Below are positions 1-5,445 of a stretch of DNA of 64,000 nt, in pieces. Position numbers and translations under genes: made by a program. Below the pieces are notes generated by a model. That model was not told the DNA's origin and searched no databases. It saw only the letters and a list, made by a program, of their open reading frames with translations. The number at the start of each line of letters is the position of its first letter. The first letter of the stretch is position 1. The DNA comes from a virus, in IMG/VR virus record IMGVR_UViG_3300028840_005153, positions 1 to 64,000 of that record, one strand, 5' to 3'.

Positions 1-27
1 CCACTTCACTGATGAGATAGCCATCAG
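1..27 (+). ncRNA. Hammerhead ribozyme cassette, copy 1 (3' part only, truncated by window edge)
   Basis: CTGATGA at 9-15 followed by GATAGCCATCAG, then AAAAGGAGG and ATG at 54, the same 3' layout as the four complete copies. Confidence 0.7.
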
Positions 28-53
28 AAACATTTTTCAAAAGGAGGAGAATT

Positions 54-260
54 ATGTCACACGCTCAAACTTTTGCGGAACAGCTAATTGAAATTCTCGG
101 TTTTGCTGCGGAAGAGGAGCCGGATTGTTATCAGACTTTCGATCCGGTAGACTTTGGAACCCTTCGTGAAAAGTATTTGACAAATGACGAAGGAGTTTGG
201 GTCAGCTTTGGCAATGGGGATGAATATACTATTGTCGTTAAAAAAGTAAAAGGAGAATAA
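54..260 (+). CDS. hypothetical protein
   Basis: ORF with strong AAGGAGG RBS. Confidence 0.8.
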   Translation: MSHAQTFAEQLIEILGFAAEEEPDCYQTFDPVDFGTLREKYLTNDEGVWVSFGNGDEYTIVVKKVKGE

Positions 261-261
261 A

Positions 262-480
262 ATGCTACCGATAATAAAAAATAGCGTTCCGGAAAAAAAG
301 AAAAGCAAAGTCTTCCGTTCCCTTCGCTTTCGTATTCTTTATAAAATAAAGAATATTGAAAGTAAAGTATTGACGGCGGGATTTGCAGTTTATGGCGATG
401 CCCTCCTTTACGCTTCCGCATTGCGTTCCTTGGAGGTAGCAAAACATTCGTGGGAAGAAATTTACATCGAGTTTAAATAA
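262..480 (+). CDS. hypothetical protein
   Basis: ORF with AAGGAG RBS, abuts previous gene. Confidence 0.7.
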   Translation: MLPIIKNSVPEKKKSKVFRSLRFRILYKIKNIESKVLTAGFAVYGDALLYASALRSLEVAKHSWEEIYIEFK

Positions 481-553
481 TTCGAAACCGGGAAGACTTT
501 ACTTCCCGGTCGTATCAGGGTGGTGCCTGATGCCTGAAGATGATAGCCTTCAG
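481..553 (+). ncRNA. Type II hammerhead ribozyme, copy 2
   Basis: GAAAC 484-488; stem III CGGGAAG/CTTCCCG; GTC 509-511; stem I GTATCAGG/CCTGATGC with loop GTGGTG; CTGAAGA 534-540. Confidence 0.85.
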
Positions 554-584
554 AAACATTTATTTTTTTAAAAGGAGGAGTAAA

Positions 585-1685
585 ATGGCGAAAGAATCGA
601 AAGTTGGATTTGCGAAACCTGCTAATGGGAAAGTGGTCCACATTGTTGTCGACGGCCTTCAGGCTTGCGATAAGAAAACCACTTTGACTGCTGATCCTGA
701 ATTGCAAATTACTTCGGTAACTTGTAAGAAATGTCAGCGCTTTGCTTTTTATAAGGAAATCCTTGTTAAAGGGCAAAAGCAGGAAGAGAAATCCACAAAG
801 GGCGATTCGAAGAAAAAATCTTCCAAGCCGAAGAAAAAGGTTGTGGATGCGCCTAAAAAAACGCCGGAAGAAATTGCCGATAAAAAAGCGGCAAAGGAAA
901 AAGATGAAGTAAAATCTCCCGGTCCTGTTAAACATACGAAAGTAAATGTTAACAGGAAAGAAAAGCGCAATCATGCAAAACTTGTCGCCGCTACTCAAGA
1001 GTCGCTTCTTGAGGTTCTTCTTCCCTTCCAAAAAGAAAAAATCCATGAAATTTCAATCATGCGCATATTTGAGGAAGCTCAAACTCATTTGCGCCAAATG
1101 CTTATGGATGCTTGTGAAGGGCAGGAAGAAAAAGATTATTTGAAAAGCCATTGGACGCTTGATTGGCGTATATTTACTCAGGCGTTTGAGAAAATTGGCT
1201 TCGCTAAATTGCGCGGCAAAGATCCTGACAAGGGACGCGTGGTTCTTTTCTATAGCGAAAAAGCAGAAAAGTCAAAGACTAAAATTAGGCGTCGCAATAA
1301 TAGCGGTTCAAAGAAAACGGCTCGCGTTATTAAACGCCGCTCCAAACCTAAAGATAAGGCGGAAGAAGAAAAGAAAACGGGTCGCGTTATTAAACGCCGT
1401 TCAAAGAGTAAAGATAAAGAAAAGACGGTCACCAAAAAGCTCAAAGATAAAAATGCTTACGGTCATCGCGAAGGCTCAATGGCGGCGAAAATTGATGAAA
1501 TGCTTTCGGAAGGTTTTATCCTTAAGGATGCCGTCGGAATTATTTCTAAAGAATTTAATCGATCAGATATAAAAGCGCGAAGAAAAATTTTGGCAGCTAT
1601 TAAATACCTTTCGCGTGAGTTGGGTATTAAAATCGAAGTAATAATGCAGGGAAGTCAAGAAGATGATTTTTATAAAATAGTTTAA
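585..1685 (+). CDS. Lys/Arg-rich hypothetical protein (N-terminal H/C motif, possible C-terminal HTH)
   Basis: AAAGGAGG RBS places start at 585; internal 60-bp duplication encoding RVIKRRSK twice. Confidence 0.75.
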   Translation: MAKESKVGFAKPANGKVVHIVVDGLQACDKKTTLTADPELQITSVTCKKCQRFAFYKEILVKGQKQEEKSTKGDSKKKSSKPKKKVVDAPKKTPEEIADKKAAKEKDEVKSPGPVKHTKVNVNRKEKRNHAKLVAATQESLLEVLLPFQKEKIHEISIMRIFEEAQTHLRQMLMDACEGQEEKDYLKSHWTLDWRIFTQAFEKIGFAKLRGKDPDKGRVVLFYSEKAEKSKTKIRRRNNSGSKKTARVIKRRSKPKDKAEEEKKTGRVIKRRSKSKDKEKTVTKKLKDKNAYGHREGSMAAKIDEMLSEGFILKDAVGIISKEFNRSDIKARRKILAAIKYLSRELGIKIEVIMQGSQEDDFYKIV

Positions 1686-1716
1686 TTATACGGGGGAATT
1701 TACTTCCCCCGTATAA
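1686..1716 (+). other. Strong hairpin without U-tract preceding hammerhead
   Basis: TTATACGGGGGAA / TTCCCCCGTATAA 13-bp stem. Confidence 0.75.
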
Positions 1717-1717
1717 A

Positions 1718-1786
1718 CCCGAAACGCGGCTTCGGCCGCGTCGTCGCGAGGTGGTGCTCGTGGCCTGACGATGGGAGCCATCGCAG
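1718..1786 (+). ncRNA. Type II hammerhead ribozyme, copy 3
   Basis: CCC-GAAAC (GAAAC 1721-1725); stem III GCGGC-TTCG-GCCGC; GTC 1740-1742; stem I GTCGCGAG/CTCGTGGC loop GTGGTG; CTGACGA 1765-1771 then T-GGG pairing with the 5' CCC. Confidence 0.88.
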
Positions 1787-1814
1787 AAAAACATCTTTCA
1801 AAAGGAGGAGAATT

Positions 1815-3248
1815 ATGGGCATCGAAGCAAAAAGAATCGTTGATTTTCTTCGGGCAGGCTATGGAGCGTTCTGGATTAAAACGCAGGAGCCTGACAGGGT
1901 TCAGTCGGTATTGATGCCAATGGTCAAAGACTTCCAAAGAAAAGACGGTGGAAAGTACAATCTTTCAAGCTGGGATTGTTCTACTTCGTCTAATCCTTTG
2001 GAACCACTTAATCAATTGAGTGCGGAAGAGGAATTGACAGTTAAATTTCTTTTCAATTTCCATTGGTTCATAGACAAGCCTCAAGTTATCCAGAAGATTC
2101 AAAACGATCTTCCTCTTTGGGCTTCAGAAGGCAAAGCAATCGTGATCGTTGCGCCGGTAGTAAAAGTTCCGGTTGAATTGCAAAATGATTTCACGATTTT
2201 GAATTTTAGCTTGCCTGACGAAAAAGAAATTCTTCACACAATTTCTTATCATATTCCTGAAGGGAAGAGAGGTCCAAGCGAAAACGAAATGGCGCGGCTA
2301 ATTGGTGCGGCCAAAGGGTTAACGCAAAAGGAACTCAATAATGTTTTGAGTCTCTCAATGGTAGTAAAAGGCAAATACGATACCGCGCTAATTAACGAGC
2401 ATAAAGCTACGGTCATTGAGAAGACGGGATTTGTAGAAGTTATCCCACCGAAGATAAACTTCTCAAACGTAGTTGGTTATGAAGTAGTCAAAGATCATGC
2501 TCGTGCTACCATGCACAATCCTAAGGCGAAAGGGTTCATGGTAATTGGCCCTCCAGGTTGTGGTAAAACTACCCTAATGAACGCAATCGTTGGCGAGTCT
2601 GGGAAGATCGGGCTGAAGATCACGCTTGGAAAACTCTTTTCTAAGTTTCAAGGGGAAACGGATGCCAATGTAGATTTCGTAATTAACCTTATTAAATCCA
2701 TTGGTGATTGCGTTGTTTTGATAGATGAGTTTGAAAAGCAATTTGCTGGATCTTCTGGAGATGGAACACTCGATAGCGGAACCACTCGGCGCGCGACTGG
2801 TCGGTGGTTGGAATTTCTTCAAGATCGGCCATCGGGCGTTTTCATTGTAGCTACGGCGAACAGTTTTAATGGTATCCCGCCGGAATATCTTCGGCCAGGA
2901 AGATGGGATACTTCGCCATTTTTTATTGATCTGCCAAATAAGAAAACTCAAGATTCGATCTTCAAATACTATGCTGAAAAATATAGTATTGAAGAAAAGA
3001 AAATCCCTAAAATGGAAGGCTGGTCAGGGGCTGAGATCGAAGCATGTTGCCAAATTGCTGATATGCACGGAATACCGTTTACTTCGGCAATGCGCTTAAT
3101 CAAACCTCAATCGGTAACAATGAAAGAACAAATTGACGCCCTGAGGTCGTGGGCAAAGGACCGCACCATAAATGCGGAAGAAGTCAAAGACATTCCAGTC
3201 AAGGCTGGAGTGGTGGCATTAAACGGTAAACGCAAAATTGATACTTGA
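1815..3248 (+). CDS. AAA+ ATPase, Ycf46-like (degenerate N-terminal AAA domain plus active C-terminal AAA domain)
   Basis: Walker A GPPGCGKT, Walker B VLIDEFEK, ATAN, PPEYLRPGRWD, GWSGAEIE, C-terminal EQIDALRSWA. Confidence 0.88.
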   Translation: MGIEAKRIVDFLRAGYGAFWIKTQEPDRVQSVLMPMVKDFQRKDGGKYNLSSWDCSTSSNPLEPLNQLSAEEELTVKFLFNFHWFIDKPQVIQKIQNDLPLWASEGKAIVIVAPVVKVPVELQNDFTILNFSLPDEKEILHTISYHIPEGKRGPSENEMARLIGAAKGLTQKELNNVLSLSMVVKGKYDTALINEHKATVIEKTGFVEVIPPKINFSNVVGYEVVKDHARATMHNPKAKGFMVIGPPGCGKTTLMNAIVGESGKIGLKITLGKLFSKFQGETDANVDFVINLIKSIGDCVVLIDEFEKQFAGSSGDGTLDSGTTRRATGRWLEFLQDRPSGVFIVATANSFNGIPPEYLRPGRWDTSPFFIDLPNKKTQDSIFKYYAEKYSIEEKKIPKMEGWSGAEIEACCQIADMHGIPFTSAMRLIKPQSVTMKEQIDALRSWAKDRTINAEEVKDIPVKAGVVALNGKRKIDT

Positions 3249-3255
3249 TGAAATC

Positions 3256-3275
3256 GGGGGAGCATTTGCTCCCCC
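3256..3275 (+). other. Hairpin without U-tract preceding hammerhead
   Basis: GGGGGAGCA / TGCTCCCCC. Confidence 0.7.
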
Positions 3276-3282
3276 AAATAAA

Positions 3283-3357
3283 TTCGAAACGGCCGAAGTA
3301 ATTACTTCGGCTGTCGCTGGCGAGTGGTGTCGCCAGCCTGATGATGATAGCCATCAG
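3283..3357 (+). ncRNA. Type II hammerhead ribozyme, copy 4
   Basis: GAAAC 3286-3290; stem III GGCCGAAG/CTTCGGCT; GTC 3313-3315; stem I GCTGGCGA/TCGCCAGC loop GTGGTG; CTGATGA 3338-3344. Confidence 0.88.
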
Positions 3358-3388
3358 AAACATTTATTTTTTTAAAAGGAGGAGTAAA

Positions 3389-3595
3389 ATGGCGAAACAG
3401 GTAAGGATTACTCTCGGCAAGGACGGAAGTGTTAAAGCTGAGGCCCTTGGCTTTAAGGGCGGAGCCTGTGAAGACGCGACAGCTTTCCTTGACAATCTCT
3501 TTGATGGTCCAAAGAAAAGAGATTTGAAAGCAAGCTATCACGAAACCGAAGACATCCAAGTATGCAATGGACTTCCTTCGGGGTGGTGCGGCTAA
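3389..3595 (+). CDS. DUF2997-like small protein
   Basis: I.I..DG.V..E..GFKG.AC...T..L pattern; typical neighbour of Ycf46-like ATPases. Confidence 0.75.
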   Translation: MAKQVRITLGKDGSVKAEALGFKGGACEDATAFLDNLFDGPKKRDLKASYHETEDIQVCNGLPSGWCG

Positions 3596-3644
3596 TTTCG
3601 AAGAGGAAAGTAAACAGTAAAAAAATAAACGAAAGGAAAAAGTC

Positions 3645-4016
3645 ATGTCTCACATTTCTACTTACGCTCAAAAAGTCAAAGACATTTCCAGCTTTAAAGT
3701 TACTCTTCAAAACCTTGGCATTACTTACCGTGAAAATTGCGATGTCCAGCAATTTGGCCGGAATATTGTAGAAAATGCCGCCATCGGATTTCAAATTCCT
3801 GGTTGGAAATATGAAATCGCAGTCAAAGATGATGGCAGCATCCTCTACGACCATTGGGGTAGTGAGCCTAATACAATGGAACGTCTCGGCCTTGTTTTGC
3901 AAAAATACAACGAAGACGTCATTCTTTCCGCAGCTTATGGACAAGAAAATGTCTCCAATGTATGGACAGAAAAAAAGGTCGCAAATGGTGATACGGTAAT
4001 TGTTTTGGAATACTAA
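3645..4016 (+). CDS. DUF1257/Ycf35-like protein
   Basis: N-terminal MSHIST...KD...L..LG and YDHWG motif; context with Ycf46-like ATPase and DUF2997. Confidence 0.75.
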   Translation: MSHISTYAQKVKDISSFKVTLQNLGITYRENCDVQQFGRNIVENAAIGFQIPGWKYEIAVKDDGSILYDHWGSEPNTMERLGLVLQKYNEDVILSAAYGQENVSNVWTEKKVANGDTVIVLEY

Positions 4017-4038
4017 AATCCTTGCAAGGAGTAAAAAG

Positions 4039-4398
4039 ATGGAAAAACAAAAAGTGACTGTAGGAACGCTTTTCAATCTTAATACCTACCATTTCGGTTC
4101 GGGCACAAAAAGTGAATGGAAGATAAAAGAGAAAAAGCCTGGACAACATTACAAGCTGACGCGGGGCGAAGATATTATGGTTTTTAAAACTATGCTCGAC
4201 GCTTATCTTCGTGTTATCGTAGAAGTTAGTTTCAATGGTTTGATTGTCCATCATTGTCCAATTGATGCTTATAACCTGGAAGAAAAACACCGGAACTTTT
4301 TTATTGGCTTGCAAGAAAAATGCTTTGAGTTGAGAGCCAATAAAAACGTGAAGAAAAAAGAACACTTTGAAAAGGTTTTTAACATTGTGAAAATTTAA
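4039..4398 (+). CDS. hypothetical protein
   Basis: AAGGAG RBS, ATG at 4039. Confidence 0.7.
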   Translation: MEKQKVTVGTLFNLNTYHFGSGTKSEWKIKEKKPGQHYKLTRGEDIMVFKTMLDAYLRVIVEVSFNGLIVHHCPIDAYNLEEKHRNFFIGLQEKCFELRANKNVKKKEHFEKVFNIVKI

Positions 4399-4404
4399 CT
4401 GTGA

Positions 4405-4424
4405 GGGGTCCCTACGGGGACCCC
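4405..4424 (+). other. Hairpin without U-tract preceding hammerhead
   Basis: GGGGTCCC-TACG-GGGACCCC. Confidence 0.75.
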
Positions 4425-4425
4425 A

Positions 4426-4502
4426 TTCGAAACGGCGGAAAGACTTTTCTTTCCGCTGTCGTGCTGAGGTGGTGCTCAGTGCCTGAAGATGATAGCCTTC
4501 AG
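4426..4502 (+). ncRNA. Type II hammerhead ribozyme, copy 5
   Basis: GAAAC 4429-4433; stem III GGCGGAAAGA/TCTTTCCGCT; GTC 4458-4460; stem I GTGCTGAG/CTCAGTGC loop GTGGTG; CTGAAGA 4483-4489. Confidence 0.88.
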
Positions 4503-4533
4503 TTAAATAATCTTTTTTAAAAGGAGGAGTAAA

Positions 4534-5445
4534 ATGGCTAAATCCAGAGAAATCCGCAGACGAGTCAAAGAAACCACGACAGTCAATGTTTTCCGTGAGG
4601 GTGTTCTTGTCCATCTCAAAGTGGGTCGCTGGGGAGCAAGGGCGAAGATGAAAGAAGAACATTTGCCGGATGACTTCCCTCGGGAAGTTGCTCGCGCTGT
4701 TCAAGACCTAATCGAAGACAAAACACTTCTTCAAGACATTTCGTCAATTCGAAGAGAATGTAAGCGGTATCTCATCAACCGAAGTCTTCCTTTCCCGGTT
4801 GACGGCCTTTTCTTTGTTCCAAAGAAATTCATCCTTGATATTGATAATTTCTTTGAAAACAAAAAAGAAGAATATAATGAAAAGGTCAATGAATTTTTCT
4901 CTCAATACGGAAGGCTTAAAAGGGATTTCCGTAGAAGGTATCCGGAAATTTATCGGGATGAAAAATATCCGCGTGAAAGTATTCTTCGGAGAAAATTCTA
5001 TTTTCATTGGTCATTCCGGCAATTCGTTGTTCCGGATAAGGAAATGGAAATACTTTCACCTGATGTTTACCGTAAGGAAATGGCGAAGTTCAAGCAAGAC
5101 ATTGAAGAAATGAAAAACATGACAGTCGCGGTTATTGGAAATGCTTTTGTGAAAAAGATCAATACCTTGGCGCGTCAATGCAACAATGAGAAGATCAATG
5201 CTGGAACAATCAAAGGTATCAACCAATTGCTGGAAAAGTTTGATACCCTTTGGGGAGACTTCGTTGGGCAAAAGCAATTGAAGTCAACCATCGAAGAAGT
5301 TCGTCGCCATATGAAAACGGTCAGTGCGGATCGTTTGCGGGAAAACGAAGACTTTCGAGAAAAGATCGGCAGCCAAATGGAAAAGATAGTAGGCAAACTC
5401 GAAAAACTTCCAGATGTTAGATTAAAAAGGAAACTGGATGTTTAG
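4534..5445 (+). CDS. DUF3150-like helical protein
   Basis: W.A..K start, SLPF..DG.FFVP, YP....LR.KF.F.W pattern; strong RBS. Confidence 0.55.
   Translation: MAKSREIRRRVKETTTVNVFREGVLVHLKVGRWGARAKMKEEHLPDDFPREVARAVQDLIEDKTLLQDISSIRRECKRYLINRSLPFPVDGLFFVPKKFILDIDNFFENKKEEYNEKVNEFFSQYGRLKRDFRRRYPEIYRDEKYPRESILRRKFYFHWSFRQFVVPDKEMEILSPDVYRKEMAKFKQDIEEMKNMTVAVIGNAFVKKINTLARQCNNEKINAGTIKGINQLLEKFDTLWGDFVGQKQLKSTIEEVRRHMKTVSADRLRENEDFREKIGSQMEKIVGKLEKLPDVRLKRKLDV

What the first reader, a model, noticed from the sequence alone, without database searches (positions are those of the whole stretch)
509..4502. Built-in conformational switch: each hammerhead core has its own covarying anti-core sequence
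Seen: directly downstream of every CTGANGA is its reverse complement, and it covaries with the variable N7 base. CTGATG pairs with CATCAG (copies 1 and 4), CTGAAG with CTTCAG (copies 2 and 5), and CTG-A-CGATG with CATCG-CAG (copy 3). N7 is catalytically unconstrained, so this covariation implies selection on an alternative hairpin that sequesters the core. The same segment (GCCAT or GCCTT) can instead pair with the stem I loop GTGGT, as in the pseudoknot known for type II hammerheads. Inference: two mutually exclusive folds exist. The anti-core hairpin may set a co-transcriptional time window for cleavage, allow regulation, or form after cleavage to block religation and keep the RBS open.
Basis: partly seen in the sequence, partly recalled or inferred. 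Interest (0 to 1): 0.8.

Follow-up and report, generated by a model that had tools for sequence, protein, structure and literature searches.

The report
Self-masking hairpin on phage hammerhead ribozymes
Each of the twelve self-cutting hammerhead RNAs that separate the early genes of this uncultured phage has a short tail that can fold back and hide the ribozyme's catalytic bases. Matched mutations indicate the fold is kept by selection, so it is probably a built-in off state, but its purpose is untested.

Summary
The record (76 kb phage contig) holds 12 type II hammerheads: 5 in window 1-4502 and 7 at 73.0-75.5 kb. Eleven of the 12 carry a 3' complement of C3-G8 lying at or after the pseudoknot strand. 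RNAfold forms this 6-9 bp hairpin in every copy (-2.7 to -10.8 kcal/mol), and it beats tail shuffles at p<=0.025 in 10 of 12.

N7 always pairs with its partner (U-A, A-U, C-G, U-G). Copies 534 and 3338 are identical over 50 nt except at N7 and its partner. Other anti-core changes are transitions that keep G-U pairing, which argues for selection on RNA rather than DNA.

The active fold is also under selection: stems I and II covary and 9 copies exceed Rfam's cut-off. The hairpin excludes the core, stem II and the pseudoknot.

Formal covariation rests on one pair and 2-3 events. Homologous hammerhead arrays in related phages lack the tail, and about 240 other type II hammerheads show it at roughly chance level. 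Function is not shown. A transcription-order timer and an "RBS kept open" role look unlikely. A thermodynamic attenuator or lock is my best guess.

This scan noted similar masks on other DNA (e1-5963673, e1-3540307, e1-6048749).

The parts
1..22 (+). Hammerhead copy 1, 3' part only (cut by the start of the record): end of stem I 1-8, core CUGAUGA 9-15, stem II strand and pseudoknot strand GAUAGCC 16-22
22..27 (+). Anti-core of copy 1 (CAUCAG). It pairs with C3-G8 (9-14). N7 is U13 and its partner is A23
480..548 (+). Hammerhead copy 2: GAAAC 484-488, stem III 487-510, cleavage after C511, stem I 512-533 (loop GUGGUG), core CUGAAGA 534-540, stem II/pseudoknot strand 541-548. The upstream stop codon at 478-480 abuts it
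   Evidence: 37.0 bits RF02276
548..553 (+). Anti-core of copy 2 (CUUCAG). It pairs with 534-539. N7 is A538 and its partner is U549
1717..1779 (+). Hammerhead copy 3: GAAAC 1721-1725, stem III 1724-1741, cleavage after C1742, stem I 1743-1764, core CUGACGA 1765-1771, stem II strand UGGG and AGCC 1772-1779
   Evidence: 52.6 bits
1778..1786 (+). Anti-core of copy 3 (CCAUCG-CAG), class B register: 9 bp with 1765-1774 and A1768 bulged. N7 is C1769 and its partner is G1783. It also takes up A9, the stem II strand and the CC of the pseudoknot strand
3282..3352 (+). Hammerhead copy 4: GAAAC 3286-3290, cleavage after C3315, stem I 3316-3337, core CUGAUGA 3338-3344, tail UGAUAGCC 3345-3352
   Evidence: 43.8 bits
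3352..3357 (+). Anti-core of copy 4 (CAUCAG). N7 is U3342 and its partner is A3353. Copy 4 differs from copy 2 over 50 nt only at these two positions
4425..4497 (+). Hammerhead copy 5: GAAAC 4429-4433, cleavage after C4460, stem I 4461-4482, core CUGAAGA 4483-4489, tail 4490-4497
   Evidence: 33.3 bits, below the cut-off of 37
4497..4502 (+). Anti-core of copy 5 (CUUCAG). N7 is A4487 and its partner is U4498

Best explanation
Each type II hammerhead of this phage's 12-member array has a lineage-specific 3' extension. It folds back on C3-G8 to form a 6-9 bp hairpin. In five copies it also covers A9, the stem II strand and the pseudoknot strand. This hairpin and the catalytic fold (2-4 bp open stem II plus a 3-5 bp loop I/tail pseudoknot) use the same nucleotides, so each ribozyme partitions between an ON and an OFF state of similar predicted stability.

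I think the hairpin most likely acts as a built-in thermodynamic competitor. It lowers or gates self-cleavage of the polycistronic early transcript, with a different setting at each gene. It then captures the core once the weakly held 5' fragment leaves, which makes the cut final.

Shown here: the hairpin exists, is predicted to form, is mutually exclusive with the active fold, and has been kept through compensatory change. Inferred: that it affects the rate or extent of cleavage in vivo.
For: Hairpin prediction.
- The hairpin is in the MFE in 11 of 11 full copies and in the truncated copy.
- It beats shuffled post-pseudoknot tails at p<=0.025 in 10 of 12 copies.

Selection on pairing.
- N7 and its partner pair in 12 of 12 copies, with four pair types.
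- c534 and c3338 are identical over 50 nt except at N7 and its partner.
- c1765 and c73556 differ within core-to-anti-core only at those two sites.
- The other anti-core substitutions (CAG to UAG, UCAG to UUGG, A to G opposite U7) all keep pairing through G-U.
- The partner change A to U in the N7=A copies shortens the pseudoknot from 5 to 3 bp and is kept anyway.

The active fold is also selected.
- RF02276 hits are above the cut-off in 9 copies.
- Stem I is paired in 88 of 88 cells at only 40% pairwise identity.
- Stem II pair 10.2-11.2 covaries, A-U in 7 copies and G-C in 4.

Energetics and precedent.
- Relative to ON plus a crude pseudoknot term, OFF ranges from 1.6 kcal/mol less stable to 4.2 kcal/mol more stable.
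- Adjacent competing helices exchange rapidly in vivo, and downstream competitors blocked a ribozyme as well as upstream ones did (PMC2817708).
- Shortening a type II pseudoknot from 6 to 4 bp cut the rate about 20-fold (PMC3088659).
Against: No cleavage or expression data exist for this phage.

Covariation is limited to one pair and about 2-3 independent events. The shuffle controls are weak (56/500 and 201/500).

The copies are mosaic and partly homogenised, so '12 of 12' is not 12 independent observations.

Homologous arrays in related phages work without any such tail. In about 240 other type II hammerheads the feature sits at chance level when one copy is taken per locus (5.2% at p<=0.05).

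The energy estimates ignore tertiary and Mg2+ stabilisation of the active fold. c73053 has only an atypical 5-bp mask that is not above chance.
Confidence: 0.45

Rival explanations
1. The hairpin is selected but matters only after cleavage. Once the 5' fragment has left, the released mRNA begins with two adjacent hairpins (stem I, then core:anti-core). These shorten the single-stranded A/U-rich 5' leader, protect it from nucleases and prevent re-association or religation. The hairpin has little effect on the cleavage rate.
For: The MFE of every predicted 3' product has stem I followed directly by the anti-core hairpin. Stem II is only 2-4 bp, so the products should separate and leave the core free to refold. 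The anti-core is transcribed last, so the ribozyme can in principle fold first.
Against: Stem I already closes the exact 5' end. With so short a stem II, religation hardly needs blocking. Scrambling the anti-core does not change predicted SD accessibility. The OFF hairpin is predicted to be as stable as, or more stable than, stem II plus the pseudoknot before cleavage, so some pre-cleavage effect is hard to avoid. Relatives manage without it.
Confidence: 0.25
2. There is no function of its own. A founder hammerhead happened to carry ...GCCAUCAG, where GCCAU extends the pseudoknot and CAG came from the ancestral leader AGCCAGAAAC. The tail spread with the cassette by duplication and gene conversion. 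The few matched changes arose by linkage, chance or hairpin-templated (quasi-palindrome) correction at the DNA level.
For: The tail, leader and RBS modules are near-identical between some copies, and stems are shuffled among copies, so homogenisation is active. GCCAU is also explained by the 5-bp pseudoknot. A relative has AGCCAGAAAC tails, only 3 nt short of CAUCAG. The formal shuffle controls are not significant. The feature is absent in relatives.
Against: Two separate pairs of copies differ at exactly N7 and its partner and nowhere else in 22-50 nt. I estimate the chance at roughly 0.7% and 1.6% each. G-U variants persist, whereas templated DNA correction would give only Watson-Crick pairs. 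The partner change to U is retained although it weakens the pseudoknot. Stems I have diverged to 40% identity, yet the mask survives in every copy.
Confidence: 0.15
3. The hairpin is a recognition site for a trans factor, such as a phage RNA-binding protein or the 30S subunit/S1 loading on the A/U-rich leader 24-32 nt upstream of each AUG. That factor stabilises or melts the hairpin and so couples ribozyme activity to infection stage or to translation initiation.
For: All 12 early-gene leaders present the same hairpin at a fixed distance from a strong SD (core to AUG is 43-55 nt). Class B hairpins carry a conserved bulged A. The stop codon of the upstream gene abuts the 5' strand of stem II in six units, so ribosomes must interact with the fold.
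Against: No candidate protein was identified. The hairpin sequence is dictated by the ribozyme core, so its conservation carries no extra information. Two different registers (6 bp, or 9 bp with a bulge) would have to be recognised.
Confidence: 0.08
4. It is a DNA-level inverted repeat, for example an operator for a dimeric DNA-binding protein in front of each gene.
For: The geometry CTGATG-N7/8-CATCAG resembles operator half-sites. The scan found no more promoter-like or terminator-like sites than its shuffles, so some other control point would be welcome.
Against: Three copies keep pairing only through G-U, which breaks the DNA palindrome. Class B is asymmetric because of the bulge. An operator predicts conservation rather than compensatory change. 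One arm is the invariant ribozyme core.
Confidence: 0.02

Closest known systems
Type II hammerhead ribozymes with a loop I/3'-tail pseudoknot, clustered around prophage and phage genes (Perreault et al. 2011, PMC3088659; Rfam RF02276)
   Same: The core (CUGANGA, GAAA, GUC) is the same. [quoted passage not shown] There is a GCC(A) tail pairing with a GUGGU loop. Several copies flank single small genes.
   Different: The 3' tail here continues past the pseudoknot with a complement of the core that covaries with N7. I found no mention of this in that paper, in the two reviews or in the library searches.
Hammerhead of the satellite RNA of barley/cereal yellow dwarf virus (satRPV). Its alternative pairing attenuates self-cleavage (Miller and Silver 1991, cited as ref. 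43 in PMC6155905; details from my own knowledge)
   Same: It is a natural hammerhead with a built-in alternative base-pairing that competes with the active fold and lowers self-cleavage.
   Different: That is a type III hammerhead in a circular plant satellite. The inhibitory pairing joins loops (L1-L2a) and does not pair with the catalytic core. It serves rolling-circle replication, not mRNA processing.
Alternative inactive folds of viroid hammerheads and HDV ribozyme attenuator pairings (established knowledge, not tested here)
   Same: Ribozyme sequences are sequestered in a competing secondary structure, so cleavage depends on the folding pathway.
   Different: Those involve long-range genome structures or upstream attenuators in replicating RNAs. 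Here the competitor is a local 6-9 bp hairpin immediately 3' of the core in a DNA phage mRNA.
Engineered hairpin-ribozyme constructs with competing downstream helices (Mahen et al. 2010, PMC2817708)
   Same: An adjacent complementary insert competes with ribozyme assembly. The outcome depends on a narrow stability threshold.
   Different: Those constructs were artificial and were tested in yeast and in vitro.

Membership tests
Hammerhead ribozyme, type II (Rfam RF02276) | Conserved core: C3-U4-G5-A6-N7-G8-A9, G12-A13-A14, and cleavage triplet N-U-H (here GUC) | tested here: met
   All 11 full copies have CUGANGA, GAAAC and GUC in the right order. The truncated copy keeps the core.
Hammerhead ribozyme, type II (Rfam RF02276) | Score against the covariance model at or above the gathering cut-off (37 bits) | tested here: met
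   Window copies score 52.6, 43.8 and 37.0 bits (the last in the local search). The copy at 4425-4501 scores 33.3 bits, below the cut-off. All seven far-end copies score 41-50 bits.
Hammerhead ribozyme, type II (Rfam RF02276) | Topology: stems I and III closed by loops and stem II open, with covariation supporting the stems | tested here: met
   Stem I is paired in 88 of 88 cells with 2-5 pair types per position. Stem III hairpins appear in every MFE. Stem II is 2-4 bp, with A-U/G-C covariation at 10.2-11.2.
Hammerhead ribozyme, type II (Rfam RF02276) | Pseudoknot between loop I and the 3' tail | tested here: met
   GCCAU pairs with GUGGU over 5 bp in 7 copies. The pseudoknot is 4 bp in c73053 and only 3 bp in the three N7=A copies. 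AGCC to AACC in c75489 keeps pairing.
Hammerhead ribozyme, type II (Rfam RF02276) | Self-cleavage after C17 | not testable with these tools
   No RNA run holds this DNA.
Natural conformational ribozyme switch or attenuated hammerhead (satRPV-like) | An alternative structure that shares nucleotides with the active fold | tested here: met
   The hairpin uses C3-G8. In class B it also uses A9, G10.1-10.2 and the CC of the pseudoknot strand. In class A it uses the last C and the A/U of the pseudoknot strand.
Natural conformational ribozyme switch or attenuated hammerhead (satRPV-like) | Comparative support (compensatory change) for the alternative structure | tested here: inconclusive
   One pair covaries (A-U, U-A, C-G, U-G), with two clean double substitutions. 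The shuffle controls are 56/500 and 201/500, and no homologous genomes with the tail were available.
Natural conformational ribozyme switch or attenuated hammerhead (satRPV-like) | The alternative structure measurably lowers or gates cleavage | not testable with these tools
   There are only nearest-neighbour estimates. Relative to ON plus a crude pseudoknot term, OFF ranges from 1.6 kcal/mol less stable to 4.2 kcal/mol more stable.
Ligand- or factor-controlled allosteric ribozyme (glmS-like or riboswitch-like) | A conserved sensor domain or identified effector that shifts the equilibrium | tested here: not met
   No extra conserved domain lies between the hairpin and the RBS. Rfam finds nothing else there. 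No effector is identified.

The most novel reading that the evidence does not exclude
The twelve masks form one regulon-wide switch. A common trans-acting event opens the core:anti-core hairpin. Candidates are 30S/S1 loading on the adjacent A/U-rich leader, release of the ribosome terminating on the stop codon that abuts stem II, or a phage protein. Self-cleavage of each early mRNA would then be licensed by translation or by infection stage. That would make these the first natural factor-gated hammerheads in a DNA phage.
Probability: 0.1. Interest if true: 0.8.

Novelty: new variant of a known kind. Interest (0 to 1): 0.55.

Why it matters
The biological role of the many hammerheads in phages and bacteria is still an open question (PMC6155905, PMC6765202). 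No natural regulation of them has been described in the papers I could search.

A hammerhead array with both an active fold and a core-masking fold under selection would be a compact natural ON/OFF ribozyme. It offers a directly testable handle on whether phage hammerheads are constitutive 'scissors' or tuned, gene-specific processing sites. The naturally occurring N7/partner swaps are ready-made compensatory mutants. It is also a design template for synthetic ribozyme switches.

If the mask proves neutral, the case remains a useful warning about reading covariation from paralogous, partly homogenised repeats.

Tried and rejected
- **Expression evidence.** No RNA holder was listed for window 1-4600. 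Contigs of two DNA runs only break at the repeats and show cross-mapping between copies. Neither gives information on cleavage.
- **Homologues with the tail.**
  - Nine related phage loci found through the AAA ATPase, and scans of viral, metagenome and genome contigs with patterns that do not include the anti-core, gave hundreds of type II hammerheads.
  - None was a close relative carrying the mask.
  - Scans that did include the anti-core returned almost only chance matches in coding DNA.
- **General enrichment of core masking among type II hammerheads.**
  - A loose null gave 14.7% at p<=0.05. A strict null gave 7.9%, or 5.2% with one copy per locus. I conclude there is no general enrichment.
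  - The UCAG-partner test gave 15 of 15 compatible pairs, but the permutation was not significant.
  - An N7-swap test looked very significant, but I reject it. U7 pairs by chance with purine-rich RBS tails, and RNAfold does not reproduce those helices.
- **'Keeps the RBS open'.** Predicted SD accessibility is unchanged by scrambling the anti-core.
- **Intrinsic terminator reading of the hairpin.** The U-run is not adjacent, and the scan flags only the truncated copy at chance level.
- **A second, type III-like hammerhead using the downstream GAAAC.** Its stem III would be only 3 bp, and the motif is present in only about half of the copies. Rejected.
- **Miller and Silver 1991 (PMC328893).** The paper is not held.


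Full report
**What is there.** The window is bases 1-64000 of a 76,048-bp virus record that CheckV rates about 95% complete. The first 4.5 kb hold five intergenic type II hammerheads.
- Rfam RF02276 scores 52.6 bits at 1717-1783, 43.8 at 3282-3356 and 33.3 at 4425-4501.
- The copy at 480-552 scores 37.0 bits once searched locally.
- A fifth copy is cut by the start of the record and keeps only bases 1-27.
- Seven more copies lie at 73.0-75.5 kb of the same record, all above the cut-off.

Together they form one array of twelve. Each sits between a stop codon and an A/U-rich leader with an AAAGGAGGAG ribosome site, 43-55 nt before the next AUG. Promoter-like and terminator-like matches in the first 5.6 kb are no more frequent than in shuffled sequence. 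This fits one polycistronic early transcript cut gene by gene, as described for prophage hammerhead clusters (PMC3088659).

**The observation.** There are two registers.
- Class A (cores at 9, 534, 3338, 4483, 74679, 75050): CUGANG pairs with CN'UCAG over 6 bp across a 7-8 nt loop.
- Class B (1765, 73556, 73998, 74389, 75489): CUG, a bulged A6, then NGAUGG pair with CCAUCN'-CAG, giving up to 9 bp.
- The copy at 73053 is odd. Its 5-bp arm (AUCAG) is made of the stem II strand plus the AG of AGCC.

RNAfold puts this hairpin in the MFE of every copy, next to the stem III and stem I hairpins. Energies run from -2.7 to -10.8 kcal/mol. I then held the core, stem II strand and pseudoknot strand fixed and shuffled only the next 12 nt. 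The native tail is still better at p<=0.025 in 10 of 12 copies.

**Is the pairing selected?** The core is invariant, so only N7 can covary.
- Its pair is A-U (3 distinct rows) or U-A (2) in class A, and C-G (3), U-A (1) or U-G (1) in class B.
- 100% and 97.7% of cells are paired, against 10-51% when the partner strand is slid by 1-3 columns.
- The shuffle controls are weak (56/500 and 201/500), because the sequences are few.

The stronger evidence is of another kind.
- Copies 534 and 3338 are identical over the 50 nt from the core through the RBS except at N7 (A/U) and its partner (U/A).
- Copies 1765 and 73556 differ between core and anti-core only at N7 (C/U) and its partner (G/A).
- Given a change at N7, the chance that the sole other change hits the partner with the complementary base is about 1/(49x3) and 1/(21x3). 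This is my arithmetic.
- Every other substitution in the anti-core is a transition that keeps pairing through G-U: UAG in 74389, UUUGG in 74679, and G opposite U7 in 75489. That favours selection on the + strand RNA and argues against a DNA palindrome.
- The partner A is also the fourth pair of the pseudoknot. The three N7=A copies carry U there and drop from a 5-bp to a 3-bp pseudoknot. They give up active-fold pairs to keep the mask.

Meanwhile the copies are old or fast-diverging. Stem I sequences share only 40% identity, yet 88 of 88 positions pair.

One caveat is that the cassettes are mosaic. Stem I is identical in 1765 and 75050, and in 74389 and 74679, and some tail-leader modules are identical. 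Twelve copies are therefore not twelve independent trials, and I count only 2-3 compensatory events.

**Two exclusive folds.** The active fold is well supported by the Rfam scores, by covariation in stems I and III, and by a 2-4 bp stem II whose 10.2-11.2 pair covaries (A-U in 7 copies, G-C in 4). The hairpin uses C3-G8 and the end of the pseudoknot strand. In class B it also uses A9, G10.1-10.2 and both C's of GCC. Nearest-neighbour estimates put OFF anywhere from 1.6 kcal/mol less stable to 4.2 kcal/mol more stable than ON plus a crude pseudoknot duplex term. That gap is within the error of ignoring tertiary and Mg2+ stabilisation. A bistable or OFF-leaning ribozyme is therefore plausible, but this is an inference.

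**What the mask does.** A timer set purely by transcription order is unlikely. The anti-core overlaps the last ribozyme nucleotides, so the head start is 0-6 nt. That is a fraction of a second at usual elongation rates (established knowledge). Even fast natural hammerheads need about a second or more: over 100 per min in PMC6155905 and over 1.2 per min for a type II construct in PMC3088659. Work with competing helices beside a hairpin ribozyme showed that downstream competitors block assembly in vivo as well as upstream ones do, with rapid exchange below a stability threshold (PMC2817708).

This points to thermodynamic partition. The mask would lower or gate cleavage by an amount that differs between genes, then hold the core once the weakly bound 5' fragment leaves. 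'Keeps the RBS open' has no support: predicted SD accessibility is the same with scrambled anti-cores. In most copies the SD is instead predicted to sit in a weak hairpin with the upstream U/C tract. A role only after cleavage, a protein or ribosome recognition site, and a neutral inherited by-product all remain open. I give them 0.25, 0.08 and 0.15, against 0.45 for the attenuator/lock.

**Relatives.** Nine phage loci whose AAA ATPase is 45-55% identical to this phage's carry homologous type II hammerhead arrays in front of the same kind of RBS. Their tails read AGCCAAAA, AACCAAAA or AGCCAGAAC and do not fold on the core. The nearest subtype (UGAUAGCC or UGGUAGCC tails; L140 = L249 = L546) also lacks the mask.

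In about 240-266 structurally verified type II hammerheads from other contigs, masking is at chance level with one copy per locus (5.2% at p<=0.05). A few unrelated lineages do have their own versions.
- L216 has seven copies with 9-10 bp masks.
- L182 has a class-B-like mask with U-A.
- L510 has a class-B-like mask with C-G.
- L078 has a mask with C-G.
- L219 has a mask with U-A.

The mask is thus a derived, lineage-specific trait that seems to have arisen more than once. It is not part of the family consensus. A relative's tail AGCCAGAAAC suggests a 3-nt insertion could have created CAUCAG here (inference).

**Comparison with what is known.** These RNAs are members of the type II hammerhead family with the known pseudoknot and the known clustering around phage genes. 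The core-masking tail is not mentioned in Perreault et al. 2011, in two reviews, or in the library searches. The closest functional precedent is the satRPV hammerhead, whose alternative pairing attenuates self-cleavage (Miller and Silver 1991, cited in PMC6155905; I could not read that paper). Earlier notes of this scan report similar masks on other genomes. My own sample agrees with 'a minority of phage hammerheads', but I could not reproduce a claim of hundreds of covarying relatives.

**Verdict.** I class it as a new variant of a known kind, of moderate interest, and testable with simple cleavage assays.

Noticed in passing
window 1687-1715, 3256-3275, 4405-4424 (also at about 73010 and 73950 of the record): GC-rich hairpins of 8-12 bp lie between the upstream stop codon and the hammerhead in 5 of 12 units, with no U-tract after them. 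The one at 1687-1715 resembles the stem III of other copies. They could be 3'-end stabilisers of the released upstream mRNA or relics of older cassettes.
   Followed up: no
window 557-587, 3361-3391 and the equivalent leaders of most copies: The U/C-rich tract of each leader is predicted to pair with the AAAGGAGGAG ribosome site, giving a weak hairpin with an AAAA loop and G-U pairs. Predicted SD accessibility is only 0.01-0.3 in 9 of 11 copies, regardless of the anti-core.
   Followed up: partly
window 534-593 against 3338-3397; 1743-1764 against record 75028-75049; record 74367-74388 against 74657-74678: The cassettes are mosaic. Two units share an identical tail, leader, RBS and first three codons (ATGGCGAAA). 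Two other pairs share an identical stem I but have different tail classes. Recombination or gene conversion among the twelve copies seems frequent.
   Followed up: partly
window 22-31, 548-557, 3352-3361 (tails reading ...CAGAAAC): In about half of the copies the tail reads CUGAUGA-[UGAU AGCC AUCA]-GAAAC. This mimics a closed stem II followed by a second GAAAC, which is a type III-like layout. The matching stem III would be only 3 bp, and a related phage has AGCCAGAAAC, so this is probably an ancestral leader motif and not a second ribozyme.
   Followed up: partly
L216:5200-9600 (IMGVR_UViG contig, unrelated high-GC phage): This is an array of seven type II hammerheads. Each has a conserved GUCAG 12-20 nt downstream, plus an inner helix between the stem II strand and the pseudoknot strand. 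Together they give a 9-10 bp core-masking hairpin of up to -12.5 kcal/mol. It looks like a convergent version of the same idea.
   Followed up: partly
L546 (same phage as L140/L249): The nearest hammerhead subtype (UGAUAGCC/UGGUAGCC tails, no mask) sits on an 83-kb contig binned into a Desulfobacteraceae MAG. The window's own DNA occurs in sediment and seawater metagenomes. This is a weak hint that the host is a sulfate-reducing Deltaproteobacterium.
   Followed up: no
window 1-8 and record end 76048: The first hammerhead is cut by the start of the record, and the end of the record does not supply its 5' half. The record is therefore not closed at this junction and may lack part of the array.
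   Followed up: partly
window 514-587: There is a weak, non-significant resemblance (17 bits, E=1.2) to the Rfam motif freshwater-2 (RF02980), which also ends in a U-run and an AAGGAG ribosome site.
   Followed up: no
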